Source: Candidatus Kerfeldbacteria bacterium
Lineage (GTDB): Bacteria > Patescibacteriota > Patescibacteriia > UBA10025 > JAHIVO01
NCBI GenBank assembly: GCA_016214565.1
Contig: JACROE010000002.1
Location: 280,007 to 344,006, forward strand
Length of the DNA stretch: 64,000 nt
Reading direction: 5' to 3'
Shown: positions 5,401 to 22,488 of the stretch, piece by piece
Numbering within the stretch: the first letter of the stretch is position 1
Layout of the letters: each line of letters begins with the position of its first letter
The notes under the pieces: model-generated
Databases searched by the model: none
The model's input: only the letters and a program-made list of their open reading frames with translations
What the model was told of the DNA's origin: nothing
Translations under genes and position numbers: made by a program

Positions 5401-5772
5401 CACAAAAAACATGTTCGACACGTCTCGCACGACAGTCCAGCCTTGTTCAATTACCGGCGATGTCGAAAAATCATTATATTGAGCGATGTCAACAATAATG
5501 TCGATAATCACAATCAGTAATTTCCCGAGCAGTGACGCGACCCACAATAATACATTAGCAAATGCAGACGCTAACGCACTGGTAACGATACCGCCAATGG
5601 TTGTATTAGTTGGCTCTTTTGTCTGCGCGATGGCCTGCCAACCAATGCCAAAAGTTCCGGCAACCACAAATACCAAAACCGCCGCGATGGCCAAGGTAAT
5701 TTTCAGCCGCGGACGGGTAGATATATAGCTCATGATGGTATGCACGAATTGGCGCATACGAATATTATTCAA
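2422..5772 (-). CDS. polytopic membrane protein, 1116 aa, with a VirB6/TrbL-like N-terminal domain (~330 aa, 6-8 predicted TM helices) and a ~780-aa hydrophilic, highly charged C-terminal tail
   Basis: The N-terminus has multiple long hydrophobic stretches (LAIAAVLVFVVAGTFGIGW; LLWVASLLGKLLIVIIDIIV; MFFVLVLLVIAFGTIL; LVIMAVLINFSKLIAGFFIDFGQVVMLTF; ALAVILLIVALMVMVVILVMLLIRLIALWVLVVLSPLAYL; ILAFFLWLSLAVM). This arrangement resembles TrbL/VirB6 family proteins. The tail is rich in K/D/E/G repeats (KDGKVLKDEKTGELVKD...; KKAKDDKGKKEDGGDDETDAGADNEEGEDTSD) and coiled-coil-like segments. Confidence 0.7.
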   Translation of the reverse strand: MNNIRMRQFVHTIMSYISTRPRLKITLAIAAVLVFVVAGTFGIGWQAIAQTKEPTNTTIGGIVTSALASAFANVLLWVASLLGKLLIVIIDIIVDIAQYNDFSTSPVIEQGWTVVRDVSNMFFVLVLLVIAFGTILKIESYRYQRLLPKLVIMAVLINFSKLIAGFFIDFGQVVMLTFVNAFADTAAANFTSVLKLRDMLNFLGNNPNLSSVTPFEMVAAPALAVILLIVALMVMVVILVMLLIRLIALWVLVVLSPLAYLAASFPMTSKYSSQWWSTFGKWVTTGPILAFFLWLSLAVMTAHPNLIGSTQIGESNVIDSTSTVTATISDVSNSQNMLGFILGISMLGISLAVASSLGGTAGRIAGQFSDKLKKAGSSSLRIAAAPAKWAGDGAKALATSQGRRVRRWYEDRAPAVMQPWNIVKGARERGEELDRMTRTVAQAKGRQFWERVSTGGKVKIPHIDRAEAALESQFAKDYHGMNKEEKAESARLLYEGLQKDPKKSEYQRRMRSLIRIAAEGGHLDDIMQDEYFQKHAKWKDENGVEKVGFADEKGFYGREKLNLFLRNALGGPDGHDEQGHRLVYELEEIGKKVKHEEYGGHNTYDAKTGHYKWLAKDDVSKAMSEYKKGTGRAQLGASPHTFTNLREVKKFLKDDKGNFVKKNGRFVVDEFMRDKDGKVLKDEKTGELVKDPNANIRRMTGGEMDSFNEAAFLATFRSQPANKINEHSQVRTASAMMGGTDEEIDKETGAMLGDKVDKERMFHMIDEWYQAPAGFWKKMGGDGLVKFQEIDYETGEVKGNVQNIFDLIIENAQKKAKDKNPNADLQVDKATGVISGKDVSDEEKQKLAEQLKAVADFYLDGKEVGKLGDSEKSIAKAFTTEKSEDKKAKDDKGKKEDGGDDETDAGADNEEGEDTSDTGEETSKSKKKSKAKPSAPQPKVEVVPGGPGTSGSSAEGRDQLVADVPTEDLALPDEAYDNPEVQAAMSPMQALNAMVSRMDQSVVSQDQMVAALDKAQEALENISKTLGDMGTEKFGATAKRMQNEMIDPLRNKLDGLSQNDFQAFRQAPQGEQLKIWREMRDLLRKLQRPGQKEKAGDATEQETEDEDDEETTSSES

Positions 5773-8700: not shown

Positions 8701-11700
8701 GCGGGTGAATCGTACGTCTGATTCACACTTTCAAATTCGCCGACTTTGGTGCACTGCCCAGTCTCCGGATCCAATTCCTCACAGACGTATCGCGACAAAC
8801 ATAATTCCTCGACATTCCCCTCAGCGTCTTCCTGCCGGACTGACGTTTCACACTCAAGCCAGCGTTTGCACTCACGATCTCGAATAACCTTAATCACCGC
8901 GTTTGAATCGCACTCATTAGGATCAGCGCAGAGCGCGGGCGTTTCGCCATCAACTGAAAGAGTCGAAACATACGGCAATTCGGAATTCGACGTATCATTG
9001 AAGAGGCGACAGCCTTCCTCTCGATCCACCAGACCATTGCAACTCGCTTGATCAACAGTTTCATCAATATAATAGTACGGTACATAGTCAAAGACATCGG
9101 CCACTTCAACGATTGAAAAACTGTCAATCAAAATATCGCAGGTATTCGGGGAAGGCGAGAAACTGCCGGCTGGTACGCTCCGACGAATCACCATGGAGAA
9201 ATTATTCTGTAGTTCTTCGACAGAGCCGGACGTATTATACCAGTCGTCGGGGTCAACTGAACCAAAGGTAACGACATTTTCAAACGTGGTCCACGAATTC
9301 GTCGCATTAAAATTACTGTACGGTCGATAATCAGTTCGACCATTTGGCCAAGCGCGATTATCAATCGTTCGCACCAACCCAAATCCGATATCGGTGTTTC
9401 CGCTGTTTGACGGATCGCAGGTGGCATCATTTGGGTCAAGCCGCGCCTGGAACGACACTTTGAACGCACGATTATCAGTAATGCTATCAGTATTCACCCC
9501 ATACCAGATATAGCGCGCCTGGTCGCCGAGACAATAATCACTAGCGCCACAATCAGCGTCACTGGTACATGTCGTGGCACTATTAATCGCGCAATGGTAT
9601 GTGATTGAACTATTAACGCTCTTGCCGCAGGCATCATACGTCTTTACGCGCGCCGCCACATTGCCGGTATTCGATTGGGAATCAGCGTGCATGCGCAAAC
9701 CGCAGGCCACCCGCTGAGACGTGTCACACACCCCTGCGCCATGAGCACTACAGTTCACATTAGTATTACAGGTTCGATTGGCATCACCGGTACAGCGTCC
9801 TGCTGACGTCTGTGAGCTCGCCCACGGAGTGAACACATCCGGCAACGCGGTATCAATAACACCATCAGTGGCGATACTTGCATTAGCCGTAGTCGTAAAC
9901 GTTTCAAATCCGCCGTTCTCTGAATAATTGCGCGATACAATTTCCCCGCCGGTCTGCACTTGCTCTGGATCACGATACTCGGTGCAGCCCGAGGCGCCCG
10001 ATGAACACGCGCCGACCCAGCCATCAACTGGCTGCGGTACAATGTTTTGATTGCGGTTGCAGAAATTGCTATCACAGTCGCTGGAGGCATTGCATATTTT
10101 CCCGTCATTCGCTCCGCCACCCGAACAAATACCAATAGACACGGGGCAATTTGGCGCGCCTTGGTCGGTGCCGAGCTTGTACCAGCCAGATATATCTTGG
10201 CCGGATACTCGCTTGAATTCACACAGTTTTTGTCCCGGATCTTTGAAATAATATTGAGAGCCATTTGCCGAGGTGAAGGCATCACACTGATTCTCTGCGA
10301 AAACGCACATTTCCTGACCAAAGCGATCAGGATCAACCACGAGATAGGTATCAGTAAATGCAGTCACGTTACCATCACCATCCAAGCCGGGTTTTCCAAG
10401 CTGAGTACAGCCAGCTTGATTTGCACCACATACCTTCTCCGGATCATCCACGATATATACCGTCTCATCTTCAGGCGTGGTTCCTTCCTCGAAATAATAC
10501 GGTTCAGCGGGTGAGGTGCCATTATTGATGTGATTCAGGAGCGCGACGGCATCGGCAATATTAATCGCTCCATCAATATTCACATCGCCGACTGCAGGTG
10601 AAACATTAAGGAAGTAATTATCCGCCCCACTAAAATGTTCGTTCATGAGCGTGACATCGTCAGCCGACAGCCGCCCGTCATAATTAACGTCGCCGCGTAA
10701 ATAACGCTCACGAGTAAATGTCGAACTGTATGGACTGGTGCTCTGCTGCGTCGCAATCATCGCCGTGCAGCCAACTTTATCTTCACCACAGAGACGACTA
10801 AATGATTTCAGGAAATGCTGGTTGCCATCGCGGTCGCTATATTCATCACAACCTTCATAACCAGAGCACTCTTTGTACGATCCTTTTACTTTATAAATAT
10901 TTTCCACCACCTCGCTGATGACAATATTATCAATATAGAAAGCATTATTGGAGAAGAGGACTAATTGCGCGTTGGCTGGATCCGCACCAACAGGAACAAA
11001 GACGGGACCGACGGTAAATCGGTTCCACAATTCACCCGCTGACGCTTGGCCAGTGAAGCTCAGTGACGGCGTGGTGTTGAGGGCAAATGAAACATTGGTT
11101 GTGCCAGCGATCGCCGATCGCGCCCAGAAGGTAATGGTGTACTGGTTACCCGCGGCAAACCCAAGTGTGTCGCCTGCATTATTAATCGCCGCACTATTTG
11201 ACACCAGCATGGAGTGGCCACCGGCGCTGGTCGCCTCAGTGGAAATGCTGGCATTGCCCGTCCAGGCGCCGATTGATCCATCTTCAAAATCCTTCACATA
11301 GAGATCACGTGAATTATCACCGGCATTACCCTTATAGGCGCGGCATCCGGCATAGGCAGCCTGACAGCTGATACCTTGGCCGGGTACCATATGATACACC
11401 ATATTCGGGCCGTCATTCGAATTGCGGAAATTCTTACAGTCCTCCGAGGCAAAGATAACGCGCGAGCGCAGCAAATAATACGTGACACCCGCCGTATCAT
11501 AGTACTCAGTACAATCAGGATTGACGCCAACCTGATCAGGACTACAGGTCGCCGGATTATAGAATTCTTCATCCGTTCCGTTACCATCACGATCAACCGA
11601 ACCACCATCGATACAGGTGGGCCAGGTAGAACCGAGCTGCGCCTGAATGATCGGATCTCCTTCCGCTCCCATATTAGTACAGGGGCCATCATTTTGATTA

Positions 11701-14700
11701 CTCTTCTTCAGACTGTACTCACGTAATTGGAATCCAAATTCATTCGAACCCTCCCAGGTATAGTAGGTGCGCTGCTGTGGATCATCGCTCGGTACACACA
11801 TTCGAATATAACTATAGTACTCCTTCCCTTCGCCACCCTGGGCGACGGTTTCGAGATTCGTGTACTCCTCACAGCCGACGGCTGAAGCGGGGCAGGATTG
11901 TCCGCTGTCAGGCACGAATGAAACCGGATCACGCAGAGCGCGATACGGCGGACGCTCAATGGCTAATTCGCGGAAGGCTGAACACCCGACAAATTCCGCG
12001 GGGCACTGATCACACGAGCCAGGAACGTTCGGGTCGCACAGGCCCGGCGATGAGATAACGCCCGTCACGGTTCTGCCATTATTTACCGAGGTGTATGCCT
12101 GGCAACCAAGCTCCAACATGCTACACGAATCCGCCTGTTTCAAAAATGTTTTCGGATTCTGGTCGTATGACTTATAGGCGGTCAAATTGCCTTCTTCAAA
12201 CTGAATATTATCAACGATGATATCGCATTGATCTGTTTGGTCGCGATGAATTGATAAGGCGATGGCATTATATTCATCAGACGCTACCTCGGGTACGGTA
12301 AATGTACCTGAATATCGTGTCCAACCATCCGTTGCCGTCACCGTGCCAAAATTTGCCTCGGTACCGACCCCGCTGCCAAATGGCAAATAATATAACGTTG
12401 CCTTGCCGTTGCTCCCCGTACAATCCGTATCATCCGCAGCAGTCTTTGCATAAAACGATAAACTATAGCTGCGACCCTCCACTCGCTCACCCATGAGTAG
12501 CCCCGCTGGTTGATTTACATTCCAGAGCATCCGACCTCCATCAGTAAAGGTGCCGGTACCCGAAGCCGGGAAGCCTGGGCAATCAGCTGCGTGGGTGGCA
12601 AGCCGAATGGCGGTAAACCCTTCATAGGCATCGGAAACCGCTAGCGTCGACAAGCCGCAATTTGGAGTTCCGCTCAAGTCCTGACCGCTTACCCAACCCT
12701 GAAAATGATCAGCCACGGGACTATCCTTAAGCGCATCATAAATTCCAGCTGCAGTCCGATCGTACGTTTCAAAATCAGTATTCGTCAAAACGTTTGCGCC
12801 ACTGCCTAAACGCGGGATGTACTCAGTACAACCAGCAGCTGATGAATCACACTGTCTAATATCATTATTAAAACTAAGTTTGGCGCCGCTACCAGTAGCC
12901 CCTGGCGGTTTGCCATTACACTCAAAAGTCCGGGTAGTATTATTATAACTGGAACAATACCACTGACAGCCGGCGTTGTCGGCATTGCATCCATTGGTTT
13001 CAACTGTATTGAGCAAATATGAAACAACGGTACCGTCTGATTTCGTTAATGATTGACAGCTGGCAAACTGAGCATCACACTGGGTGCCACTAAATTTCCA
13101 GACTGGCTTGTCCTCCACACAATACCCATACCGAGCGCACGACCCATCGGCATTTTCCTGGAGACACAACTGTTCATCAGCGCAATAATCGCCCTGACGC
13201 TGAACGACAGCAGTGGCCGCGTCTTTAGTATCAATCCGACCATCGCCATTGGTATCTTCATTGCGGATCGGGGTATTGGCGATAATCTGCTCACCCGCAC
13301 CCTGGCGACGACAAAATACTTCGGGAGATTTGAGCACCCAATTCGGATCGACTAATTTATAGAACGGCGATTCGATATCATCATAGTCAGCGATGAGCGT
13401 ATTCAAACTATAGTTTCCTGAGGCAAACTGTTTGCCATACTGAGCAGCCAATTCCCAACCAACTGGAATGATCCGATATTTGCGCAAGATTAATAAGCTG
13501 CGATACGGGTACCCATTATAATATTCTGGCTCCAGCCCATTCGAATCAAAACCAAACGGCTTGCTTCCATCAATCAAGCCCTGCTCCAGAGCCTGCCGCA
13601 GGGTGAGCTCCTGCTCAATGGCAGTGCGGAAACGAGTATCAATCACGCAATTCGTCGGTGTCGGATTATTTGGATCAGGACAGCTCGATAGATTGCCTAA
13701 TATATCAGTGGTACCCGCTACTGAGTAATTGGTATTTTGTAAATCAGCAAACAAAAATTTTGCTGCCGTCACCCCAGGCGATGAGCCGCCCAAGAAACTG
13801 GCGATACCACTCCGGCCGCCGCTCCCGCTCGATGTAGCCGGATCGACACCGAAGATATACCGCTGGATGAGTTTGCTGGCAAGCGTATTGGTAAAGATAC
13901 CGACCGCGTCGGCGATGGCGGTACCCGTATAGGTCAAATACGGATCAATCGATTTACCAAATATGCTCGTGGCGGCATTACTAAGAAGACCAGCAGGCGT
14001 TTTCACCGCGCCGCTTATCTTGCTCTTAACCGGTTTGAATTCTCCGGCTAAACTCTGAGCAAATTTATTAATCTCAACTTCAGCGTCACTCGCAGCCTTA
14101 CCTTTATTCAAAATATCAAGGTAGGCGCCCAACTGAGTCGCCTCAGGATTAAATGTCTTAGAAAATTCTACTAAATACTGTTTATTAGGATTCGTCTTAC
14201 CTAGTAACCCCTCATAATTATCAATCGCAGTTCGGTATTCGTCATACTTATCGATAATGTCAGTCAGCGGACATCGGCCACTAATGCTCGCACCACCCTG
14301 ATCGGTTAACGCTTTTCGAGCCAAAACATTGAGCTTAATCTGAATCGAACGATCATTAGGACCGCCTGGGCCAGGCAGGTCACATAAACTAAAATTACTA
14401 GCACACTCTGGTGCGCCATATTCAAAATGATAATCATTCGATAAATCGCTGTCCACGATAGCGTCCACCTCAGGACAATCTTCGGTACTACAGGTAATTA
14501 AGCGACAACCAGCGGCAATACATTTATTTTTTTCCTCGATACTGGAGGTACAGCCCGTCACCTCGAGACTATCGGGACACAATAAATATGATTCAGGACA
14601 CGATGAATCCGCTTTACATTTGCTACCAGTGTACCCCGAGCACTCCGTCTTCCCCAGCCAATCTGAGGCAATTGAATCGAGAAAATCACCAGCTGCCGCA

Positions 14701-15056
14701 TCGCCTGCCTGTTTTAATAACTCCTCTGGCTTAGTGACGAAAAGCGGCTTTTGACCTTTTTCGCCTGTGGCGATTTGCACCGCGACATTGTATGCCAAAT
14801 TATTTAAATACGTACGCAATATATTTTTGAACCCGACGTCAGCCGCGGTCTTCAATGTCTTGCTCAAAATTTCATAAATGGTCCGTGGAATATCACCGAC
14901 GGTGATGCTCACATCCCCAATGCCAAACAACGCCCGTGCCTGCATCGGAACGACCAGAATCGGAATAGCTAATTGCAAAACAAAAAACACCATGGCTCCG
15001 GCGAGTATCAATCGCTGTCCTTTGCTCAAATGGTGATTTTGTTTTGTAGACGACAT
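5793..15056 (-). CDS. giant (3087 aa) cysteine-rich extracellular/surface protein. It has an N-terminal signal anchor, many Cys-rich modules, one dockerin-like calcium-binding repeat pair and a C-terminal PKD-like domain.
   Basis: Single uninterrupted ORF. The N-terminus has a hydrophobic anchor (LILAGAMVFFVLQLAIPILVVP). Paired cysteines are very frequent (e.g. CSGYTGSKCKADSSCPESYLLCPDSLEVTGCTSS...). The dockerin type-I-like tandem motif DVNYDGRLSADDVTLMNEHFSG...GDVNIDGAINIADAVALLNHIN is encoded near 10520..10700. The C-terminus reads VDFDNDGNADYSSVGTYDSGTVFVTHEYTTGGAYPIRIRVIDNWD (PKD-like), encoded near 5800..6100. Confidence 0.85.
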   Translation of the reverse strand: MSSTKQNHHLSKGQRLILAGAMVFFVLQLAIPILVVPMQARALFGIGDVSITVGDIPRTIYEILSKTLKTAADVGFKNILRTYLNNLAYNVAVQIATGEKGQKPLFVTKPEELLKQAGDAAAGDFLDSIASDWLGKTECSGYTGSKCKADSSCPESYLLCPDSLEVTGCTSSIEEKNKCIAAGCRLITCSTEDCPEVDAIVDSDLSNDYHFEYGAPECASNFSLCDLPGPGGPNDRSIQIKLNVLARKALTDQGGASISGRCPLTDIIDKYDEYRTAIDNYEGLLGKTNPNKQYLVEFSKTFNPEATQLGAYLDILNKGKAASDAEVEINKFAQSLAGEFKPVKSKISGAVKTPAGLLSNAATSIFGKSIDPYLTYTGTAIADAVGIFTNTLASKLIQRYIFGVDPATSSGSGGRSGIASFLGGSSPGVTAAKFLFADLQNTNYSVAGTTDILGNLSSCPDPNNPTPTNCVIDTRFRTAIEQELTLRQALEQGLIDGSKPFGFDSNGLEPEYYNGYPYRSLLILRKYRIIPVGWELAAQYGKQFASGNYSLNTLIADYDDIESPFYKLVDPNWVLKSPEVFCRRQGAGEQIIANTPIRNEDTNGDGRIDTKDAATAVVQRQGDYCADEQLCLQENADGSCARYGYCVEDKPVWKFSGTQCDAQFASCQSLTKSDGTVVSYLLNTVETNGCNADNAGCQWYCSSYNNTTRTFECNGKPPGATGSGAKLSFNNDIRQCDSSAAGCTEYIPRLGSGANVLTNTDFETYDRTAAGIYDALKDSPVADHFQGWVSGQDLSGTPNCGLSTLAVSDAYEGFTAIRLATHAADCPGFPASGTGTFTDGGRMLWNVNQPAGLLMGERVEGRSYSLSFYAKTAADDTDCTGSNGKATLYYLPFGSGVGTEANFGTVTATDGWTRYSGTFTVPEVASDEYNAIALSIHRDQTDQCDIIVDNIQFEEGNLTAYKSYDQNPKTFLKQADSCSMLELGCQAYTSVNNGRTVTGVISSPGLCDPNVPGSCDQCPAEFVGCSAFRELAIERPPYRALRDPVSFVPDSGQSCPASAVGCEEYTNLETVAQGGEGKEYYSYIRMCVPSDDPQQRTYYTWEGSNEFGFQLREYSLKKSNQNDGPCTNMGAEGDPIIQAQLGSTWPTCIDGGSVDRDGNGTDEEFYNPATCSPDQVGVNPDCTEYYDTAGVTYYLLRSRVIFASEDCKNFRNSNDGPNMVYHMVPGQGISCQAAYAGCRAYKGNAGDNSRDLYVKDFEDGSIGAWTGNASISTEATSAGGHSMLVSNSAAINNAGDTLGFAAGNQYTITFWARSAIAGTTNVSFALNTTPSLSFTGQASAGELWNRFTVGPVFVPVGADPANAQLVLFSNNAFYIDNIVISEVVENIYKVKGSYKECSGYEGCDEYSDRDGNQHFLKSFSRLCGEDKVGCTAMIATQQSTSPYSSTFTRERYLRGDVNYDGRLSADDVTLMNEHFSGADNYFLNVSPAVGDVNIDGAINIADAVALLNHINNGTSPAEPYYFEEGTTPEDETVYIVDDPEKVCGANQAGCTQLGKPGLDGDGNVTAFTDTYLVVDPDRFGQEMCVFAENQCDAFTSANGSQYYFKDPGQKLCEFKRVSGQDISGWYKLGTDQGAPNCPVSIGICSGGGANDGKICNASSDCDSNFCNRNQNIVPQPVDGWVGACSSGASGCTEYRDPEQVQTGGEIVSRNYSENGGFETFTTTANASIATDGVIDTALPDVFTPWASSQTSAGRCTGDANRTCNTNVNCSAHGAGVCDTSQRVACGLRMHADSQSNTGNVAARVKTYDACGKSVNSSITYHCAINSATTCTSDADCGASDYCLGDQARYIWYGVNTDSITDNRAFKVSFQARLDPNDATCDPSNSGNTDIGFGLVRTIDNRAWPNGRTDYRPYSNFNATNSWTTFENVVTFGSVDPDDWYNTSGSVEELQNNFSMVIRRSVPAGSFSPSPNTCDILIDSFSIVEVADVFDYVPYYYIDETVDQASCNGLVDREEGCRLFNDTSNSELPYVSTLSVDGETPALCADPNECDSNAVIKVIRDRECKRWLECETSVRQEDAEGNVEELCLSRYVCEELDPETGQCTKVGEFESVNQTYDSPAFVSKIQNYTGLVMAGLDWDRRCTNNPSITCTSDAQCGSGTCDDPQIYEGSLPVAAMEEVGSISINGEIIEDGDFGDRDYALNQKLSCPLSASSDTCVETPGLFNATEIALVNLDTAWQPRNLQGGTAVVTWAEEDINNGTIPSTSGNLDENNVARVKTSGNVGAGTANWNGIYYDLHKSAQRSEEYYVSFRLRWGVPASAYDTVRVQFAYVNANGNELDYKTVGDFAPTVNWKEYVYGPIRIGDTNSGAPVDFDSIRLEIVHNFQSGDTVPSVEFYLDDVSMKPVLQTKESDQGLLSRDCRLFPGVDSPYCTYTDENNTTHKGWEGYCLEHDPRYPKYCLNWWPVDLLKGDSSAFSSLKITGYSGRRPLYMCLGAEGNYSTPKDIRGANQTTFSGATVNSDSAGTTRGNCGISFPISPLLNLSYRYRGPMSTIIVNQSGTGECDEAGNMAGTVPASNCQFKTGVCGACDAGDGGTCNAINSTYNAAVGDQYYKWEVRDINFVMQRWAHTDWDCNTTATDEGRSIFILNARNNWDATWSCSGNSIRVRVNWAANNRLQSYTVTMTDGNNGGGAWVQGIFRLNEMCTSIASVVTWDDDKAWFERTNTNSPYLLPDLLYRYHQHTTPYGGIIQPSPAISTPSAWRWDNGVGSGPIYIENKSDDTLAHGGSSYSCPSGGCAGRMCSWNLDNDCSTQSLQRACLEGPDPDDSSDDGYCLGLGEGFCSNNAEIYCRVNSDCLSGVNDFGPCLLGGGGASPITTIPQGNDRLRRLFARPFLAWRWDNATAGYVEDTTNLVGATNLPATWIGQYANMSVCPYSAPKGAAERPLYPNDYCGVPPVIDTVLCGAGGQPSTSGCQNVSVGQLVQLTFNVNADPNQKPVKLIEVDFDNDGNADYSSVGTYDSGTVFVTHEYTTGGAYPIRIRVIDNWDWCGVLKGTGSSCPSGDCRYQVDGSPCANQGWFATGVTANVNP

Positions 15057-16011: not shown

Positions 16012-16875
16012 CTACTGTTTTTTCATAAAGGCGTGCACCACCCTAATCCAGTCCCTGATGGTTAATGTTTGAGGTCGCGATTCTGGGCTAATCTTAGCCG
16101 ACAATAAGGTTTTTTGAACTTCCTGATTTGATAATTTCAGACCTGCCGCCAGGGTGTTATGGAGCTGCTTTCGCCGACCCGAGTAGCCGATCTTAACCAA
16201 TCGAAAAAAATCAGCCGCTGAATATGGCTTTAGTGTTTTCAAAAATCCGTGAACATCTGATCCAATCTTGGTGAGATGTAAAATTGCTGAAGTAACCGCC
16301 GGTGCCGGCCAAAAACTGGATGGCGGCACCAGACGGACTATCTCCGAATCAGCATACAATTGCACAGCAACGCTCAAAACGCTCATGGCGCCAGCCGGAG
16401 CAATGACTCGCTCCGCCACCTCCTGCTGGACTAATACGGTCACCGAGGTCGGCCGAGGCTGGGTCTCAAGAAATTCACGGAGTACCCGGGAAGTAATATT
16501 GTAAGGAAGATTTGAAACTAGCTGATAGGTGCCATCCTGAATAAGCAACGGGAGCGCACGCCGTACCTGAAAAATATCACCGGTTACCAGGTGAAGCGGC
16601 GGGTACACGCTGGTCAATTTGTGAAGCGCGGGTATCAGGCGCCGATCTTGCTCTACGGCAACCACGGTAGCCCCGGCCTCGAGCAAGGCTATGGTTAAAC
16701 TGCCAAACCCCGGACCAATTTCTAATACCCGAGCACCCGGTACAATGCCAGCGGCACGAACCATATCCGTTATAACTGTTTCATCAATTACAAAATTCTG
16801 ACCCTGGCTGCGATCAGGCTTCATACCATACTGCCGAGCTAATGTTTGAATTTCATTTTTTCCCAAATGTTTCAT
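16012..16875 (-). CDS. rsmA: 16S rRNA (adenine1518/1519-N6)-dimethyltransferase RsmA/KsgA
   Basis: Characteristic motifs QNFVID, LEIGPGFGSLT and NLPYNIT. Length 287 aa. Confidence 0.9.
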   Translation of the reverse strand: MKHLGKNEIQTLARQYGMKPDRSQGQNFVIDETVITDMVRAAGIVPGARVLEIGPGFGSLTIALLEAGATVVAVEQDRRLIPALHKLTSVYPPLHLVTGDIFQVRRALPLLIQDGTYQLVSNLPYNITSRVLREFLETQPRPTSVTVLVQQEVAERVIAPAGAMSVLSVAVQLYADSEIVRLVPPSSFWPAPAVTSAILHLTKIGSDVHGFLKTLKPYSAADFFRLVKIGYSGRRKQLHNTLAAGLKLSNQEVQKTLLSAKISPESRPQTLTIRDWIRVVHAFMKKQ

Positions 16876-18087: not shown

Positions 18088-18723
18088 CTATGCCGCTTTG
18101 GCAGGCTGCGCGCCGCGCACTTTCACCGGACCCTGACGAATAATAGTTATCTTCCCATTCTCCAGCCGCACCACGGTAGAAACGGGAACCTCGGGCAAAT
18201 CGCCCGCGTCAAGAATGAGATCAGGCTGCGCATCATTTGCCTGAAACATGCGCAAGACGCATTCAGCAGAATAGCAATTCCCTTTCCCGCTCAAATTGGC
18301 GCTCGTTGATGTGATCGGCGAACCCGCTGCTTTGACCAACATTTGAGCTGCTTGCAAATCAGGTATGCGGACACCAACCGTGGGTAACCCCAGAGTAAGG
18401 AACGGCGGCACGCTCTCCACTTTGTCAAAAATAATTGTCACCGCGCCCGGCCAATACGCATCCATAATTTTTTTCTCAGCAGCAGAAACGCGAGCAATTT
18501 TTTTCAGCATGGTGACCGAATCGACAATCACCGGCAATGGTTTTTGCACCCGTTGCTTGATAATAAATAATTTACCGATCGCGTTTTCATTCAGCGCATC
18601 GGCTGCCAAACCATAAGCAGTGTCGGTAGGATAGGCGACCACGCCGCCTTGCTTCAACACGGCTGCCGCTTGCTCAATAATATTTTTTTCAGGATTGGAG
18701 AGATTGAGACGTACGATATCCAT
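18088..18723 (-). CDS. tsaC: L-threonylcarbamoyladenylate synthase, YrdC/Sua5/TsaC family
   Basis: YrdC signature AYPTDTAYGLAAD. Length 211 aa. Confidence 0.85.
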   Translation of the reverse strand: MDIVRLNLSNPEKNIIEQAAAVLKQGGVVAYPTDTAYGLAADALNENAIGKLFIIKQRVQKPLPVIVDSVTMLKKIARVSAAEKKIMDAYWPGAVTIIFDKVESVPPFLTLGLPTVGVRIPDLQAAQMLVKAAGSPITSTSANLSGKGNCYSAECVLRMFQANDAQPDLILDAGDLPEVPVSTVVRLENGKITIIRQGPVKVRGAQPAKAA

Positions 18724-19199
18724 TATGAATGTGATAAATAATCTTTCACGGTCTTTGATGTTAGATCAATGGCAGGTGCGCGATTCTCGAGAAGATTCAG
18801 TCCGGCCAATACATGATCAACCACCGCCTGGGTATATGACTGCCTGAGCTCTTCGCTGGGAAATCCGAAATACATATTGCGGTGCGCCAGCTGGTAAATG
18901 CAGTCCTCCAGCATTTCTCCCGGTTCTTCATTCACTGCCAAGGTCAGCGGATGGGCAAACGACGGGGGCGTATTCACCAGATACATGGGAATAACCGCGT
19001 CTGCATGCTCCGCCCAATCATACCCACTGTACTGGGGGATGAGCTCGAGGATGCGAGCCTGCGTCTGCTCGAATATCTTTTCAAAATCAGCACCGATTCG
19101 AATAATGCGTTGCCAGGCATCAGCAAAAGGGTCATCCGAGACCGCTTGGAGCCGGCGAGCATACTCATAATTATACAAAAGTTCAATTTCGGGAAGCAT
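18723..19199 (-). CDS. hypothetical protein (158 aa)
   Basis: ORF between leuS and tsaC. The stop/start overlaps tsaC by 1 nt. No recognisable motif. Confidence 0.5.
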   Translation of the reverse strand: MLPEIELLYNYEYARRLQAVSDDPFADAWQRIIRIGADFEKIFEQTQARILELIPQYSGYDWAEHADAVIPMYLVNTPPSFAHPLTLAVNEEPGEMLEDCIYQLAHRNMYFGFPSEELRQSYTQAVVDHVLAGLNLLENRAPAIDLTSKTVKDYLSHS

Positions 19200-19236: not shown

Positions 19237-22200
19237 TTAAACCACAAAATTCACCAGTTTTTTGGGAACAAAAATTACTTTTTTTGGTTCACCAGTCAGA
19301 TGCCGCTGCACGGCCACACTGGTTTTTGCTTTTTCAACGACCACTTCCTGAGGAGCATCAGTCGGCATTACCAGCGTGTCGCGAAGTTTGCCATTTACCT
19401 GGATAGCATAGGTGGCTTCTGTTTTAACGATTTTGGCTGGATCAAATTTCGGCCACCCCTCGTTTTCTATATACGTCGTGTGTCCCAGCTGGTGCCAGAG
19501 TTCTTGCGCCAAGTGCGGGGCAAATGGTGCGAGTAATTGTAAAAATCTTTCAAATGAAGTTTGTGCCACAGAAGCAGTGCCCCATTCATTGGTTAATTTC
19601 ATCAAATCACTAATGCAGGTATTAAAACGGAACAGCTCAATCTTTTCGCTGACTGATTGGATAGTCTGATGCAGTAATGTACTCCCAACCTCAGTTTTGC
19701 CCCGCTCAACCCGATCAAATATTTCCCAGACCCGCTCAACAAATCTCCGAACACCAATGATCCCCTTGGTACTCCACGGCTTCGCATCTTCAAACGGCCC
19801 CATGAACATTTCATACATGCGCAGCACATCCGCGCCGTATTCTTTGACGACATCGTCAGGATTAATCACATTGCCGCGCGACTTCGACATCTTCTGTCCA
19901 TCCTCGCCCAGGATAATCCCCTGATTCTTCAGTTTCACAAATGGTTCTTCACCGCATTCGTTCGGCACTGCGCCAATGTCAAACAAAAACTTATAAATGA
20001 AACGCGCGTACAAAAGATGCAGCACCGCATGCTCCGCACCACCCACATACATATCGACCGGCAACCAGGCTTTCAATTTTTCTGGATCAGCCAGCTGTTT
20101 GTCATTATGTGGATCGCAATAGCGTAAGAAATACCAGTTAGACCCAGCCCACTGCGGCATGGTATTTGTCTCGCGTTTGGCTGGTCCGCCGCACTCAGGG
20201 CAGGTCGTATTGACCCATGATTCAATTGCGGCCAGTGGCGATTCGCCGGTGCCGGTTGGTTCGTATTTCTCCACGTCGGGCAAGGTAACGGGCAAATCTT
20301 TTTCCGGGACTGCCGCCGCCTCGCATTTGGCGCAATGCACAATCGGGATTGGTTCGCCCCAGTACCGCTGGCGGGAAAATAACCAATCGCGCATTTTGTA
20401 ATTGATGGATGTTTTGCCTAAATCCTTTTTCTCCAGCCAGGCAATAATTTTTTTCTTGAACTCAACCGAATCCATGCCGTTATACTCGCCGGAATTGATC
20501 ATCTCACCATCACCCGTCCAGCAAGTGTACTCAATGTCGGAATCTAGGGTACCCCAAGCGCCGGCGCTTCCCATGGGCGGCTGCATCTTCGGCATCACCC
20601 GATCTGGCTGAATGACAGGCACAATCGGCAGTTTAAATTTCTGGGCAAAGGCGTGATCCCGCTCATCGTGCGCTGGCACGGCCATGATGGCGCCCGTACC
20701 ATAAGTGCTCAACACATAATCAGCTATCCAAATGGGCATCTTCTTATCATTAACGGGGTTGACTGCGTACGCGCCGGTAAAAACGCCAGTTTTATTTTTT
20801 GCCAAATCAGTGCGCTCCAGATCAGATTTGGCCGCCGCTTCTTTTTGGTATTGCTCAACAGCACTGCGTTGTTTGTCAGTCGTGATTAAACCAACTAATG
20901 AGTGCTCGGGTGACAGCACCACATACGTCGCGCCAAATATTGTATCCGGTCGGGTAGTAAATACCGTTACCTGTTGATTAGCTCCAGATGCAATTGCTGC
21001 CAACACCGTCGGCACGGCAAACGATCCGAGTTCGCGATTAGCATAATGCGGACGTGGCGCTTGTTCCATAATTAAGTGGGCGCCCAATAATTCCGCTAGC
21101 GCCTTTGGTTCAGCTGGTGCCACCAAGTCATCATGCGTATCGCCAATCACGGTAATCCGTGGCACCTGGCGATTAATTTTTTTCACATCATAATCATAGT
21201 CACTATACTGCGAAACTCCCGCGGGATAGGTGACATTCGGTTGAGCTGGAACATGGGGCGGTGCAAGCAATACCAACCCAGCTAATTTCAAACCTAATTG
21301 CTGGACGGCTTCCAATGCCAGCACGCAGCCAAGGCTATGCCCAAGAATAACCGTGTCTGAATCCGGTTTCAAGGATTTCACAATTTTAAGATTTTCCTCC
21401 AGGCTCGGCATCTCCTCGATTGATAGCTGTGGCGCGTCAACGCGCGTACCATGCTTCTCAAGTTCGGCGCGGAGCCATACTTTGAAACCCGTGTCCGGAC
21501 TGCCCTGGTACCCATGTAATATGATGACTCGTTTTGGCCACTGCGCTTCAATCGGAAAATGTATCGTCGCACCTTCGCTCCGACCAATCCAATTGCGCTG
21601 TAATAATTTGATTGACTCTGGCCAATCAACAGTATCCAATCCATGAAGCAATCGCTCGATATAGCGCTCGTCAGTAATTTTTACTAACCACTGTTTAATT
21701 TGTTTCTTGGTCACCGGCGTGCCGCAACGCTCGCATTTTCCGTCTACTACTTCTTCATTAGCTAAGCCGGTTTTATCTTTCGGACACCAATTGATCGGCG
21801 CGTCAGCTTCGTAGGCGAGGCCGTGCTTGAACAGCTGAACAAAAATCCACTGAGTCCAGCGGTAATATTTTGGATCAGACGTAATAACCTCGCGTGACCA
21901 ATCATAGGAAAACCCGAGACTTTGTATCTGCCGGCGCATGTTGGCAATGTTTTCTGCGGTGGTTTTGGCGGGGTGGGTGCCAGTTTTGATAGCGTAATTC
22001 TCTGCGGGCAGGCCAAATGAGTCAAACCCCATCGGGTGGAGCACCGATTTTCCCCGAGCGCGAAGATAGCGGGTATAGATATCGGATGCGGTGTACCCCT
22101 CTGGGTGGCCGACGTGCAAACCCTGCGCCGATGGATAGGGGAACATATCCAATACGTACGACGAATCACCCGATGCCGTATCCGAAACACGCCAAACCTG

Positions 22201-22263
22201 ATCCCGCTTCCAGGATTCCTGCCAGCGTTGCTCAACTTCCGAATGATTGTAGTGTTTCCGCAT
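19237..22263 (-). CDS. leuS: leucyl-tRNA synthetase carrying an inserted ~190-aa alpha/beta serine-hydrolase-like domain at the start of the CP1 editing domain
   Basis: HVGH (HIGH-class) motif at P-Y-P-S-A-Q-G-L-HVGH. KMSKS motif present (QKMSKSRGN). RNWIGRSEG...TTRPDT are the conserved CP1 flanks. Between them lies an extra segment (aa ~241-432; nt 20980..21555) with IILHGYQGSP and GHSLG motifs. The track start at 22275 is GTG. The ATG at 22263 (MRKHYNHSEVEQRW) is the more likely start. Confidence 0.93.
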   Translation of the reverse strand: MRKHYNHSEVEQRWQESWKRDQVWRVSDTASGDSSYVLDMFPYPSAQGLHVGHPEGYTASDIYTRYLRARGKSVLHPMGFDSFGLPAENYAIKTGTHPAKTTAENIANMRRQIQSLGFSYDWSREVITSDPKYYRWTQWIFVQLFKHGLAYEADAPINWCPKDKTGLANEEVVDGKCERCGTPVTKKQIKQWLVKITDERYIERLLHGLDTVDWPESIKLLQRNWIGRSEGATIHFPIEAQWPKRVIILHGYQGSPDTGFKVWLRAELEKHGTRVDAPQLSIEEMPSLEENLKIVKSLKPDSDTVILGHSLGCVLALEAVQQLGLKLAGLVLLAPPHVPAQPNVTYPAGVSQYSDYDYDVKKINRQVPRITVIGDTHDDLVAPAEPKALAELLGAHLIMEQAPRPHYANRELGSFAVPTVLAAIASGANQQVTVFTTRPDTIFGATYVVLSPEHSLVGLITTDKQRSAVEQYQKEAAAKSDLERTDLAKNKTGVFTGAYAVNPVNDKKMPIWIADYVLSTYGTGAIMAVPAHDERDHAFAQKFKLPIVPVIQPDRVMPKMQPPMGSAGAWGTLDSDIEYTCWTGDGEMINSGEYNGMDSVEFKKKIIAWLEKKDLGKTSINYKMRDWLFSRQRYWGEPIPIVHCAKCEAAAVPEKDLPVTLPDVEKYEPTGTGESPLAAIESWVNTTCPECGGPAKRETNTMPQWAGSNWYFLRYCDPHNDKQLADPEKLKAWLPVDMYVGGAEHAVLHLLYARFIYKFLFDIGAVPNECGEEPFVKLKNQGIILGEDGQKMSKSRGNVINPDDVVKEYGADVLRMYEMFMGPFEDAKPWSTKGIIGVRRFVERVWEIFDRVERGKTEVGSTLLHQTIQSVSEKIELFRFNTCISDLMKLTNEWGTASVAQTSFERFLQLLAPFAPHLAQELWHQLGHTTYIENEGWPKFDPAKIVKTEATYAIQVNGKLRDTLVMPTDAPQEVVVEKAKTSVAVQRHLTGEPKKVIFVPKKLVNFVV

Positions 22264-22488
22264 AGTACAATTCACTCTAACATTTCACTACTGCCAATTC
22301 AAGCGATATAATCAGTACCGATTGACATGGCTATATACCTATGGTATTGTTCGCAATTGAAACTTATGGAGATAAGGAGTGGCGCCAAATATACCTATTT
22401 GGCGGGTTAAACAGTAATTTATCATTGTTTGAGCCTCCGGTTTAAATCAATCATCATAACCGCATTATTGCGCGCCCTGGAAGGGGTG

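What the first reader, a model, noticed from the sequence alone, without database searches (positions are those of the whole stretch)
20980..21555. Leucyl-tRNA synthetase with a serine-hydrolase (GHSLG) domain inserted at the entry to the CP1 editing domain
About 190 extra residues lie between the conserved RNWIGRSEG and TTRPDT motifs, which flank the start of the CP1 editing domain in bacterial LeuS. The insert contains IILHGYQGSP and the nucleophile elbow GHSLG. Acidic and histidine residues follow downstream. This pattern is typical of the small alpha/beta serine hydrolases of the RBBP9/YdeN family. A hydrolase module grafted next to the editing site of an aminoacyl-tRNA synthetase is unusual. 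It could provide extra trans-editing or deacylation activity, or be an unrelated moonlighting esterase.
Basis: partly seen in the sequence, partly recalled or inferred. Interest (0 to 1): 0.75.

Follow-up and report, generated by a model that had tools for sequence, protein, structure and literature searches.

The report
Serine hydrolase nested inside leucyl-tRNA synthetase
A small serine esterase domain with its catalytic residues intact sits in a surface loop of the editing domain of an otherwise normal leucyl-tRNA synthetase; the same arrangement recurs across the ultra-small Patescibacteria (also in Ile- and Val-tRNA synthetases), I found no paper describing it, and its function is untested.

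Summary
Window 19237-22275 (-) encodes a complete bacterial LeuRS (NCBI MBI5037358.1, Candidatus Kerfeldbacteria). Residues 241-433 are a discrete RBBP9/YdeN-type alpha/beta serine hydrolase: Pfam PF06821 at 52.7 bits against a cut-off of 22, and an AlphaFold model whose best PDB matches are RBBP9 and YdeN. The predicted triad is Ser314-Asp382-His410. The domain sits at the tip of the first CP1 hairpin, just before the TTRPDT editing motif.

It is not an assembly artefact. Of the 80 best loci from other genomes, 39 carry the domain inside LeuRS, at five or more different sites. Eight carry it in IleRS at the homologous hairpin, and one carries it in ValRS. Ser and His are kept in every embedded copy examined. 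The CP1 editing motifs, HIGH and KMSKS are intact, so the hydrolase adds to editing rather than replacing it.

Function is unresolved. The same domain is also nested in UvrB, fused to a SecA fragment, and fused to NUDIX, Ham1, a peptidase and other enzymes. Patescibacterial LeuRS loops also host NUDIX, Ham1-like and ASCH-like domains. I therefore favour an autonomous aminoacyl/short-acyl ester hydrolase carried by LeuRS (about 0.5). Functional coupling to the synthetase's own chemistry, meaning mischarged tRNA or homocysteine thiolactone and aminoacyl thioesters, has about 0.35. No description was found in the searchable literature. I class it as a new variant of a known kind.

The parts
19237..22275 (-). 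leuS: complete bacterial-type leucyl-tRNA synthetase, 1012 aa from GTG (1008 aa from the ATG at 22263 as annotated by NCBI, MBI5037358.1)
   Evidence: ORF. NCBIfam TIGR00396 scores 1032 bits against cut-off 548. PDB LeuRS matches reach E 2e-225. Exact match to P0010. Full-length AF2 model has pLDDT 89.2 and pTM 0.80, with TM 0.87 to 4AQ7.
22105..22116 (-). HIGH signature (HVGH, aa 54-57) of the class I catalytic core
21571..21597 (-). RNWIGRSEG motif (aa 227-235), the last conserved core element before CP1
   Evidence: aligned to Tth 'RAWIGRSEG'
21556..21570 (-). Outgoing beta-strand of the first CP1 hairpin (ATIHF, aa 236-240)
   Evidence: Aligned to Tth 'AEILF'. Predicted as a strand in both AF2 models.
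20977..21555 (-). Nested RBBP9/YdeN-type alpha/beta serine hydrolase domain (aa 241-433), about 190 aa with no lid
   Evidence: PF06821 52.7 bits. YdeN 1UXO E 8e-9. AF2 model pLDDT 87, pTM 0.84. Foldseek best hits are RBBP9 2QS9/7OEX and YdeN 1UXO, E 1e-13 to 1e-11, TM 0.73-0.77. It is the only copy in the window.
21511..21516 (-). HG dipeptide (His254-Gly255) after strand 1 of the hydrolase; assigning it to the oxyanion hole is inference from the general alpha/beta-hydrolase pattern
   Evidence: Invariant or nearly invariant in alignments A3/A4. HG is present in most copies of every class.
21328..21342 (-). Nucleophile elbow GHSLG; Ser314 codon at 21334-21336
   Evidence: Ser is present in all 125 domain copies examined. 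It aligns with RBBP9 Ser75.
21130..21132 (-). Predicted catalytic acid Asp382 (in THDDLV)
   Evidence: Aligns with RBBP9 Asp138 and the YdeN acid. This column is D or E in 46 of the 50 site-A copies counted (one search gives 45 of 49 without the duplicate P0010).
21046..21048 (-). Predicted catalytic base His410 (in RPHY)
   Evidence: Aligns with RBBP9 His165. His is present in every copy examined.
20941..20970 (-). Return strand of the hairpin plus the Thr-rich editing motif (VTVFTTRPDT, aa 436-445)
20416..20976 (-). Remainder of the CP1 editing domain (aa 434 to about 620), including GTGAIM-AVPAHDERD (aa 526-540, 20656-20700)
   Evidence: PF13603 204 bits, with its best stretch at 431-615 covering profile positions 18-185. 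Editing motifs are intact.
19879..19893 (-). KMSKS signature (aa 795-799)

Best explanation
What it is (shown; confidence about 0.95). The gene encodes a full-length, editing-competent bacterial LeuRS from a Candidatus Kerfeldbacteria genome. A complete, lid-less RBBP9/YdeN-type alpha/beta serine hydrolase (aa 241-433; Ser314, Asp382, His410) is nested at the tip of the first beta-hairpin of the CP1 editing domain. Its envelope ends six residues before the TTRPDT editing motif. Short linkers of about 5-7 residues join it to the two hairpin strands. The arrangement is inherited and conserved. Relatives at 25-80% identity across Patescibacteria carry the same domain in LeuRS at five or more different loops, in IleRS at the homologous hairpin, and in ValRS. 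The nucleophile and the histidine are kept in every case examined.

How it most likely works (inferred; confidence about 0.5). The module is an autonomous Ser-Asp-His hydrolase that cleaves small soluble acyl or alpha-aminoacyl esters, thioesters, or N-terminal residues of peptides. These are the activities reported for characterised family members: RBBP9 (aminopeptidase needing a free alpha-amine, and valacyclovir esterase) and the YdeN homologue ML-005 (short-chain esterase). It works beside the synthetic site and the CP1 editing site, not in place of either. LeuRS serves as a constitutively expressed, insertion-tolerant scaffold in a reduced genome. On this view, precise geometry relative to the tRNA 3' end is not required. 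That fits the many insertion sites and the occurrence of the same domain in UvrB and a SecA fragment. The strong bias toward Leu/Ile/Val synthetases suggests that its substrates are hydrophobic aminoacyl compounds, but this is not shown.
For: Identity and fold:
- PF06821 52.7 bits, cut-off 22.
- YdeN 1UXO E 8e-9.
- AF2 domain model pLDDT 87, pTM 0.84.
- Foldseek top hits RBBP9/YdeN, E 1e-13 to 1e-11.

Host intact:
- HIGH, KMSKS, TTRPDT and GTGAIM-AVPAHDERD are present.
- leuS_bact 1032 bits.
- Full-length model pLDDT 89, TM 0.87 to E. coli LeuRS-tRNA 4AQ7.

Not an artefact:
- The same architecture appears in P0011 (81% identity), P0012 (66%) and P0021 (58%), from other assemblies.
- It appears in 39 LeuRS of GTDB species representatives from about 12 candidate phyla.

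Selection on catalysis:
- Ser and His are present in all embedded copies (LeuRS, IleRS, ValRS).
- The acid is Asp or Glu in most copies.

Family chemistry:
- RBBP9 activates valacyclovir (Shenoy 2020, cited in PMC7730578).
- ML-005 is a short-chain esterase, and YdeN has no lid (PMC6119806).

Autonomy:
- The domain is also nested in UvrB (P0217; next to uvrC; 12 contigs).
- It is fused to a SecA wing/scaffold fragment (P0233), inositol monophosphatase, NUDIX, Ham1-like, Peptidase_S51 and a methyltransferase.
- About 98 of the top 150 representatives are stand-alone proteins of about 190 aa.
- The same LeuRS loops carry NUDIX, Ham1 or ASCH-like inserts in other Patescibacteria.
- Embedded domains show no basic charge bias; the window's domain has net charge -5.
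Against: - LeuRS is by far the commonest host. It accounts for 29 of 52 long representatives and 39 of 48 embedded GTDB hits. The other recurrent hosts are exactly the two paralogous CP1-editing synthetases.
- In both LeuRS and IleRS the favoured site is the hairpin immediately before the Thr-rich editing motif.
- All five LeuRS sites lie in or next to CP1 in the sequence.
- That non-random pattern is what functional coupling would predict. A pure passenger model explains it only by assuming that these loops are unusually permissive.
- Host counts are biased, because the search profiles were built mostly from LeuRS-embedded copies.
- No activity, substrate or 3D distance was measured. The tools return no model coordinates.
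Confidence: 0.5

Rival explanations
1. Extra cis-editing site. The hydrolase deacylates mis-aminoacylated tRNA-Leu, or another aminoacyl-tRNA ester. It would receive the flexible CCA end from the neighbouring CP1 or synthetic site and so widen the proofreading range of a class Ia synthetase.
For: - It is inserted in the first CP1 hairpin, just before TTRPDT.
- IleRS carries it at the homologous hairpin before WTTTPWT, and ValRS carries it at the CP1 exit.
- All five LeuRS sites flank or lie in CP1.
- RBBP9-type enzymes accept alpha-aminoacyl groups with a free amine, including an aminoacyl ester of a nucleoside analogue.
- The triad is strictly kept.
Against: - The CP1 editing motifs are intact in the window and in about 90% of hydrolase-bearing LeuRS, so no editing gap is evident.
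- Five different insertion sites are hard to reconcile with one required geometry.
- The same domain occurs in UvrB, a SecA fragment and many non-tRNA fusions.
- There is no basic surface bias.
- The only fusion to a YbaK trans-editing domain (P0008) is a singleton, in a lineage where YbaK is fused to many unrelated proteins.
- There is no sequence or fold relation to known aa-tRNA deacylases.
Confidence: 0.22
2. Clean-up of the synthetase's own reactive by-products. LeuRS, IleRS and ValRS misactivate homocysteine and release homocysteine thiolactone, and they also make aminoacyl thioesters. The tethered hydrolase would destroy these aminoacyl thioesters or esters at their source.
For: - Homocysteine is misactivated and cyclised by MetRS, LeuRS, IleRS and ValRS, which also aminoacylate thiols (PMC5370406).
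- The alpha/beta hydrolase BPHL (valacyclovirase) is an efficient homocysteine thiolactonase (PMC4198189).
- RBBP9 is a second valacyclovir hydrolase.
- YdeN was proposed to act on soluble esters or thioesters.
- This reading explains the Leu/Ile/Val host range, tolerance of many insertion sites, and co-insertion with other 'house-cleaning' hydrolases such as NUDIX and Ham1.
Against: - The link rests entirely on analogy. BPHL belongs to a different alpha/beta-hydrolase family.
- No MetRS host was seen, although MetRS is the main thiolactone producer.
- The RBBP9 pocket residues (Tyr99, Leu103, Glu108, Phe140) are not conserved in the embedded copies, and the loop alignment there is unreliable.
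- It does not explain the UvrB and SecA hosts.
- Homocysteine metabolism in this organism was not examined.
Confidence: 0.13
3. The domain has lost or never uses catalysis here. It would act as a structural, regulatory or protein-docking module, comparable to the CAAD membrane anchor inserted in cyanobacterial aaRSs.
For: - There is a precedent for a non-catalytic domain recurrently inserted in Val/Ile/Leu and other class I aaRSs (PMC4893482).
- In some copies the acid position is Phe, Tyr, His or Gln.
Against: - Ser and His are invariant in all embedded copies despite 25-40% overall identity.
- GHSLG and HG motifs are retained.
- The window's copy has all three triad residues.
Confidence: 0.06
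4. Artefact: an assembly chimera or frameshift joins a hydrolase gene to leuS.
For: One related metagenomic record (P0001/L081) does show a break, with the ORF ending right after the hydrolase.
Against: - That break is a frameshift in a single old contig, and the LeuRS continues in another frame.
- In the window the frame is continuous on both sides, with LeuRS sequence before and after the insert.
- Composition is uniform.
- The architecture is present in dozens of independent assemblies.
Confidence: 0.01

Closest known systems
RBBP9 / YdeN family of small serine hydrolases (Pfam PF06821; human RBBP9 2QS9/7OEX, B. subtilis YdeN 1UXO, esterase ML-005)
   Same: About 190 aa, lid-less alpha/beta hydrolase fold. 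GHS(L/S)G nucleophile elbow, with Asp and His at the aligned triad positions. These are the best sequence and fold matches.
   Different: Known members are stand-alone proteins, whereas this copy is nested inside another enzyme's domain. The residues that hold the substrate in RBBP9 (Tyr99, Leu103, Glu108, Phe140) are not conserved, so substrate preference cannot be transferred. Identity is only 23-25%.
Canonical bacterial LeuRS (T. thermophilus 1H3N/2BYT, E. coli 4AQ7/4ARC)
   Same: Same domain order, HIGH/KMSKS signatures, CP1 with Thr-rich, GTG and HDxRD editing motifs, and the same anticodon-binding and C-terminal domains. 36% identity, TM 0.82-0.87.
   Different: About 187 extra residues at the tip of the first CP1 hairpin (Tth position 239). 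The leucine-specific domain (Tth about 581-636) is absent.
CAAD-containing aminoacyl-tRNA synthetases of cyanobacteria (PMC4893482)
   Same: A lineage-specific domain, homologous to stand-alone proteins, was recruited repeatedly as an internal insertion into ValRS, IleRS, LeuRS and other class I aaRSs. It sits at alternative sites and shows signs of transfer between aaRSs, and the synthetase stays active.
   Different: [quoted passage not shown] Here the recruit is an enzyme with a conserved triad, placed in or next to the editing domain.
IleRS with an inserted GNAT domain (NCBIfam NF040702 'ileS_w_GNAT')
   Same: It is a curated precedent for an enzyme domain embedded in a class Ia synthetase (listed).
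   Different: The inserted fold and chemistry differ (acetyltransferase). It was not examined further here.
BPHL valacyclovirase / homocysteine thiolactonase
   Same: A serine alpha/beta hydrolase that cleaves alpha-aminoacyl esters of nucleoside analogues and an aminoacyl thioester made by class I aaRSs. It is a possible functional analogue.
   Different: It belongs to a different alpha/beta-hydrolase family, is stand-alone and is eukaryotic. No homology beyond the superfamily fold was shown here.

Membership tests
Bacterial-type leucyl-tRNA synthetase (TIGR00396 leuS_bact) | Whole-protein score above the curated equivalog cut-off | tested here: met
   1032 bits against a cut-off of 548
Bacterial-type leucyl-tRNA synthetase (TIGR00396 leuS_bact) | Class I signatures HIGH and KMSKS | tested here: met
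   HVGH aa 54-57, KMSKS aa 795-799
Bacterial-type leucyl-tRNA synthetase (TIGR00396 leuS_bact) | CP1 editing domain with Thr-rich motif, GTG motif and the conserved Asp (HDxRD) | tested here: met
   PF13603 204 bits; TTRPDT at 440, GTGAIM at 526, AVPAHDERD at 532
Bacterial-type leucyl-tRNA synthetase (TIGR00396 leuS_bact) | Overall LeuRS fold including anticodon-binding and C-terminal domains | tested here: met
   AF2 pLDDT 89.2; TM 0.87 to 4AQ7, 0.82 to 2BTE; PF08264
Bacterial-type leucyl-tRNA synthetase (TIGR00396 leuS_bact) | Leucylation and editing activity | not testable with these tools
   Requires enzyme assays
RBBP9/YdeN serine hydrolase (Pfam PF06821) | Score above Pfam gathering threshold | tested here: met
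   52.7 bits (insert alone) and 48.3 bits (whole protein) against a cut-off of 22
RBBP9/YdeN serine hydrolase (Pfam PF06821) | Nucleophile elbox G-x-S-x-G with Asp and His at the family's triad positions | tested here: met
   Ser314, Asp382 and His410 align with RBBP9 Ser75, Asp138 and His165 and with the YdeN triad
RBBP9/YdeN serine hydrolase (Pfam PF06821) | Compact lid-less alpha/beta hydrolase fold of about 190 residues | tested here: met
   AF2 pLDDT 87, pTM 0.84; top Foldseek hits 2QS9, 7OEX, 9FCR, 1UXO with TM 0.73-0.77
RBBP9/YdeN serine hydrolase (Pfam PF06821) | Substrate-pocket residues of RBBP9 (Tyr99, Leu103, Glu108, Phe140, Leu141) | tested here: not met
   These columns are variable in embedded copies, and the loop alignment is unreliable. 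The residues define RBBP9's specificity, not family membership.
RBBP9/YdeN serine hydrolase (Pfam PF06821) | Hydrolase activity | not testable with these tools
   Requires esterase/aminopeptidase assays or activity-based probes
Known aminoacyl-tRNA trans-editing / deacylase families (YbaK/ProX PF04073, AlaX, DTD, Pth) | Sequence or fold homology of the insert to one of these families | tested here: not met
   No such Pfam hit at E <= 0.1. All top fold matches are alpha/beta hydrolases. The one hydrolase-YbaK fusion found (P0008) is a singleton.
Recurrent lineage-specific insertions in class I aaRS (CAAD-like phenomenon) | Same accessory domain found in several aaRSs and at several sites within one lineage, with stand-alone homologues | tested here: met
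   LeuRS sites A-E, IleRS and ValRS; stand-alone copies in the same phyla

The most novel reading that the evidence does not exclude
The nested serine hydrolase is functionally coupled to the chemistry of the branched-chain class Ia synthetases. It would be a third hydrolytic site of the serine-hydrolase type, beside the synthetic and CP1 sites. Its substrates would be aminoacyl esters or thioesters that these enzymes make in error: mischarged tRNA, homocysteine thiolactone, or aminoacyl-thiol adducts. On this reading it was recruited independently several times in Patescibacteria because these reduced genomes lack other quality-control factors.
Probability: 0.33. Interest if true: 0.85.

Novelty: new variant of a known kind. 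Interest (0 to 1): 0.62.

Why it matters
Class Ia synthetases are the textbook case of two-site proofreading, with a synthetic site and a CP1 site. A conserved enzyme of a different catalytic class, nested in CP1 of LeuRS and IleRS and beside it in ValRS across a whole bacterial radiation, poses a directly testable question. Either it is an unrecognised quality-control or by-product clean-up activity, or it is a clear example of how extremely reduced genomes pack small housekeeping hydrolases into loops of essential proteins. LeuRS in these organisms also carries NUDIX, Ham1-like and ASCH-like inserts. Either answer bears on translation fidelity and genome economy in Patescibacteria. The finding also affects annotation, since these proteins are currently labelled simply 'leucine--tRNA ligase' or, in one case, 'alpha/beta fold hydrolase'. 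Finally, it bears on the still unknown physiological role of the bacterial YdeN/RBBP9 family.

Tried and rejected
1. Hydrolase-YbaK fusion as evidence for a tRNA-editing link. P0008 (Kineococcus) is a singleton. Its YbaK relatives are fused to permeases, OPRTase, aminotransferase and other proteins. The lead was dropped.
2. A naturally split LeuRS at the insertion point (P0001). The break is a frameshift in one old metagenomic contig, and the LeuRS continues in another frame.
3. The hydrolase replacing a degenerate CP1. The CP1 motifs are intact in the window and in nearly all hydrolase-bearing LeuRS. Apparent misses are minor motif variants, except the Thr-rich motif of L036.
4. A basic, RNA-binding surface on embedded copies. 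Mean net charges resemble those of stand-alone copies, and the window's domain is -5.
5. Stand-alone hydrolase genes lying next to class Ia aaRS genes. None was found within 4 kb in 32 loci.
6. Transferring RBBP9's substrate pocket to the insert. The residues are not conserved and the loop alignment is unreliable.
7. A table of insertions from global pairwise alignments. The aligner split the inserts into pieces, so site assignment rests on flank mapping instead.
8. The afdb50 fold library was unavailable.
9. Seven literature searches were run, counting those that returned results. The four aimed at this architecture and the broader aaRS/Patescibacteria search found no description of it. The library lacks most subscription journals, so absence is not proof.
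10. The distance from Ser314 to the editing pocket or the tRNA path could not be measured. The structure tools return no coordinates.
Full report
**1. Observation**

The region lies in a single uninterrupted ORF, window 19237-22275 on the minus strand (1012 aa from a GTG). The product is identical, from the ATG at 22263, to NCBI protein MBI5037358.1. That record is annotated only as 'leucine--tRNA ligase', from a Candidatus Kerfeldbacteria MAG on a 1.116 Mb contig.

- RNWIGRSEG, aa 227-235
- IILHGYQGSP, aa 251-260
- GHSLG, aa 312-316
- TTRPDT, aa 440-445

Against Thermus thermophilus LeuRS (1H3N, E 2e-225), the alignment runs query 8-245 to Tth 3-239 and resumes at query 432 to Tth 239. About 187 residues are therefore inserted at one point, the turn of the hairpin that precedes the Thr-rich editing motif. 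Pfam's LeuRS editing-domain model (PF13603) matches in two stretches, and the larger one covers profile positions 18-185 at residues 431-615. The insert therefore interrupts the start of the editing-domain model.

**2. What the insert is**

Alone, residues 241-432 score 52.7 bits (E 6e-14) on PF06821 Ser_hydrolase, whose gathering cut-off is 22. Only weaker hits to generic alpha/beta-hydrolase families follow. The best solved relative by sequence is B. subtilis YdeN (1UXO, E 8e-9 over 177 residues), followed by human RBBP9.

An AlphaFold2 model of aa 227-455, built on 24 aligned sequences, is confident (mean pLDDT 87, pTM 0.84). It shows the alternating strand-helix pattern of an alpha/beta hydrolase, bracketed by two strands that correspond to the LeuRS hairpin. 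Its best matches among solved structures are RBBP9 (2QS9, 7OEX, 9FCR) and YdeN, with E 1e-13 to 1e-11 and target-normalised TM 0.73-0.77. These are well ahead of other esterases.

Profile alignment places Ser314, Asp382 and His410 on RBBP9 Ser75, Asp138 and His165. The window holds no second copy of this domain.

**3. The host is an ordinary, complete LeuRS**

- HVGH, KMSKS, the Thr-rich motif, GTGAIM and AVPAHDERD (with the conserved editing Asp) are all present.
- NCBIfam leuS_bact scores 1032 bits against a cut-off of 548.
- A full-length AF2 model has mean pLDDT 89.2 and pTM 0.80, with the hydrolase region at 87-97. It superposes on E. coli LeuRS-tRNA (4AQ7, TM 0.87) and Thermus LeuRS (2BTE, TM 0.82).
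- The leucine-specific domain of Thermus (about 581-636) has no counterpart.
- Base composition of the insert matches the rest of the gene (GC 0.511 against 0.494).

**4. It is a lineage-wide feature, not an accident**

A scan of one genome per GTDB species, using the insert alignment, returned 80 loci. In 48 of them the hydrolase lies inside a 600-1700 aa ORF:
- 39 are bacterial LeuRS.
- 8 are IleRS of Saccharibacteria (ileS equivalog 734 bits for L027).
- 1 is ValRS (L004).

The record titles of the LeuRS hosts span Curtiss-, Doudna-, Sacchari-, Parcu-, Magasanik-, Falkow-, Kaiser-, Taylor- and Gracilibacteria, Minisyncoccia and Paceibacterota.

Among the 120 closest LeuRS relatives of the window protein, 30 carry PF06821 in the precomputed Pfam column (my own profile found one more, P0035), 15 carry NUDIX, 2 carry Ham1 and 1 carries ASCH. 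Many close relatives, such as P0014 (833 aa, 74-83% identical), carry nothing.

**5. Insertion sites**

I mapped the flanks of each embedded copy onto the insert-free relative P0014. This gives five distinct sites for the same domain in LeuRS:

| Site | Position in P0014 | Location | Examples |
|---|---|---|---|
| E | about 200-212 | Before the 'DWP' loop, about 25 residues upstream of RNWIG | L001, L059 |
| A | 236-262 | The hairpin used in the window; the majority site | window, most others |
| B | 377-408 | A variable CP1 loop | |
| C | 433-441 | CP1 exit | |
| D | 472-474 | The HCxxC hairpin | |

Some proteins carry two copies (P0015, P0026, P0031, P0061).

In IleRS the domain sits between 'SVYVKFRL' and 'FLLAWTTTPWTLPAN'. 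This is the hairpin homologous to LeuRS site A, directly before the Thr-rich editing motif. Some IleRS have a second, divergent copy about 30 residues further on. In ValRS L004, a histidine-phosphatase domain and three tandem hydrolase copies lie between CP1 and 'RDEDTLDTWFSS'.

A rough neighbour-joining tree on identities suggests several origins:
- The Kerfeldbacteria clade (window, P0011, P0012, P0015 copy 1) is separate from the main site-A clade.
- Site-D copies fall in two places.
- IleRS copy 1 nests within the LeuRS site-A clade.

At 25-40% identity this tree is only indicative.

**6. Conservation of catalytic residues**

Across 125 domain copies, every embedded copy keeps the nucleophilic Ser and the His. 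The acid column varies more:

| Class | Acid-column residue |
|---|---|
| LeuRS site A (49 copies) | Asp 32, Glu 13 |
| LeuRS site C | Asp in all |
| IleRS/ValRS copies | Asp in all |
| LeuRS site B (5 copies) | Asp 4, Glu 1 |
| LeuRS site D (16 copies) | Phe/Tyr/His in 6, each with another Asp three to four positions upstream |

This points to selection on hydrolytic activity, not just on a folded spacer.

The CP1 editing motifs are retained in the window and in about 90% of hydrolase-bearing LeuRS. Most apparent misses are small variants such as GTGSLFG-DAHDDRD. Only L036 has a degenerate Thr-rich motif. The hydrolase therefore does not replace CP1.

**7. Evidence bearing on function**

Known chemistry of the family:
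- RBBP9 forms acyl-enzymes with single Leu/Ile, Met, Phe, Tyr or Trp residues. [quoted passage not shown]
- RBBP9 also activates valacyclovir, a valyl ester of a nucleoside analogue (Shenoy 2020, cited in PMC7730578).
- The bacterial YdeN homologue ML-005 is a short-chain esterase. YdeN's lack of a lid suggested soluble esters or thioesters as substrates (PMC6119806).

This chemistry is compatible with an aminoacyl-ester hydrolase next to an editing domain. The host range (Leu, Ile, Val) and the position next to the Thr-rich motif in two paralogues are non-random.

Against a tRNA-directed role:
- An exhaustive profile search found 12,453 relatives at E <= 1e-3, mostly stand-alone proteins of about 190 aa.
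- Of the 52 longer proteins among the best 150, 29 are LeuRS.
- The others include UvrB with the domain nested between its helicase domains. That gene lies next to uvrC and is seen on 12 contigs.
- Further partners are a SecA wing/scaffold fragment, inositol monophosphatase, NUDIX (several), Ham1-like, Peptidase_S51, a methyltransferase and other alpha/beta hydrolases.
- Patescibacterial LeuRS loops also carry NUDIX (mostly site B), Ham1-like (site A) and a roughly 130-aa weakly ASCH-like insert (site D).
- Saccharibacterial IleRS adds a low-molecular-weight phosphatase and NUDIX.
- Embedded copies are not more basic than free ones.
- Free copies are not next to class Ia aaRS genes.
- The single YbaK fusion is incidental.

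These host counts are biased toward LeuRS, because my profiles were built largely from LeuRS-embedded copies.

**8. Interpretation**

Shown:
- A folded hydrolase of the RBBP9/YdeN family, with Ser, Asp and His at the aligned triad positions, is nested in CP1 of a complete LeuRS.
- The arrangement is conserved and recurrent in Patescibacteria.
- The host's own catalytic and editing motifs are intact.

Inferred:
- The domain is active.
- Most likely (about 0.5) it works autonomously on small acyl or aminoacyl esters, thioesters or peptide N-termini, with LeuRS as an insertion-tolerant, constitutively expressed carrier.

Functional coupling to the synthetase has a combined probability of about 0.35. 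The two forms are an additional deacylase for mischarged tRNA and a sink for homocysteine thiolactone or aminoacyl thioesters. LeuRS, IleRS and ValRS are known to make the latter (PMC5370406), and another valacyclovirase, BPHL, hydrolyses homocysteine thiolactone efficiently (PMC4198189). The by-product idea accounts for the host range and for the tolerance of many sites, but it rests on analogy only. A purely structural role is unlikely given the invariant Ser and His. An assembly artefact is excluded for practical purposes.

**9. Comparison with what is known, and novelty**

The two parts are members of known families (LeuRS; PF06821). The combination is not described in any paper I could find, and public annotation ignores it.

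The closest described phenomenon is the CAAD domain of cyanobacteria. It was repeatedly recruited from stand-alone Curt1 proteins into ValRS, IleRS, LeuRS and other class I aaRSs, at alternative sites (PMC4893482). CAAD is a membrane anchor placed away from the tRNA. Here the recruit is an enzyme placed in or beside the editing domain. NCBIfam also curates an IleRS with a GNAT domain.

I therefore rate this as a new variant of a known kind: a lineage-specific accessory domain in a class I synthetase. Its interest is moderate to high. The architecture is striking, widespread and directly testable, but the evidence that the domain is promiscuous lowers the odds that it represents a new editing mechanism.

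**10. Limits**

- No coordinates were available, so the spatial relation of Ser314 to the editing pocket and of sites A-E to each other is unknown.
- The domain tree is crude.
- The host census is biased.
- The literature library lacks most subscription journals.
- No read data were available.

Noticed in passing
Related proteins P0050, P0053, P0055, P0057, P0069 (NUDIX only); P0024, P0027, P0028, P0031, P0045, P0058 and loci L002, L016 (NUDIX plus hydrolase); P0039, P0040 (Ham1); P0071 (ASCH): Patescibacterial LeuRS is a general hot spot for nested small enzyme domains. NUDIX sits mostly in a CP1 loop (site B), Ham1-like in the site-A hairpin, and two tandem NUDIX domains plus the hydrolase occur in L016. 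About half of the window protein's 120 closest relatives carry at least one insert of 60 aa or more.
   Followed up: partly
P0011 aa 646-785, P0018 aa 479-618 and about 19 other close LeuRS relatives (site D, the HCxxC hairpin; equivalent to window aa 652-656): A recurrent insert of about 130 aa with only a weak ASCH-domain match (PF04266, E 0.0027, below the cut-off). The window's LeuRS lacks it.
   Followed up: partly
L007, L013, L015, L018, L021, L022, L027 (Saccharibacteria IleRS, up to 1702 aa): IleRS carries a low-molecular-weight phosphotyrosine phosphatase domain, sometimes a NUDIX domain, and one or two PF06821 hydrolases. All are inserted around the entry to CP1.
   Followed up: partly
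L004:1469-5170 (bin labelled Gammaproteobacteria): A ValRS (truncated by the contig end) with a histidine-phosphatase (His_Phos_1) domain and three tandem PF06821 hydrolase domains between CP1 and the 'DTWFSS' core motif.
   Followed up: partly
P0217 = L082:3001-5538 (and L083): UvrB with the same serine hydrolase nested between the UvrB interaction domain and the C-terminal helicase domain. It lies next to uvrC and is seen on 12 contigs from several sources.
   Followed up: partly
P0184, P0192, P0226, P0219, P0225, P0253, P0233 (from the representative search): Free-standing fusions of PF06821 with Ham1-like, NUDIX, a second alpha/beta hydrolase, Peptidase_S51, inositol monophosphatase, a methyltransferase and a SecA wing/scaffold fragment. 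The repeated pairing with nucleotide 'house-cleaning' enzymes may hint at the substrate class.
   Followed up: partly
window 19237-22275 (aa about 791-795): The LeuRS has no leucine-specific domain; Thermus residues about 581-636 have no counterpart.
   Followed up: no
window 49407-49482 (-): tRNA-Ile with anticodon UAU. From my own knowledge, this is unusual for bacteria, which normally read AUA with a lysidine-modified CAU tRNA.
   Followed up: no
window 5793-15056 (-) and 2422-5772 (-): Two very large ORFs (3087 aa and 1116 aa). The 1116-aa one has no Pfam match, and the 3087-aa one was not examined.
   Followed up: no
window 18723-19199 (-), 18088-18723 (-), 16012-16875 (-): Downstream of leuS on the same strand lie a 158-aa ORF with no Pfam match, a Sua5/YrdC-family gene (from my own knowledge, the tRNA t6A pathway), an MFS transporter and a KsgA-type rRNA dimethylase. 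None is related to the hydrolase.
   Followed up: partly
L081:60-2818 (JGI YNP7 contig): A related LeuRS appears split just after the hydrolase domain. The downstream part continues in another frame ('ITIETFTTRVDT...'), which is consistent with a sequencing frameshift and not a natural split.
   Followed up: yes
L004, L011, L037 (labelled uncultured Gammaproteobacteria); L041 (labelled Woesearchaeota): These bins carry Patescibacteria-like LeuRS or ValRS with the nested hydrolase, or (L037) a free hydrolase. The taxonomic labels of the records are probably wrong.
   Followed up: no
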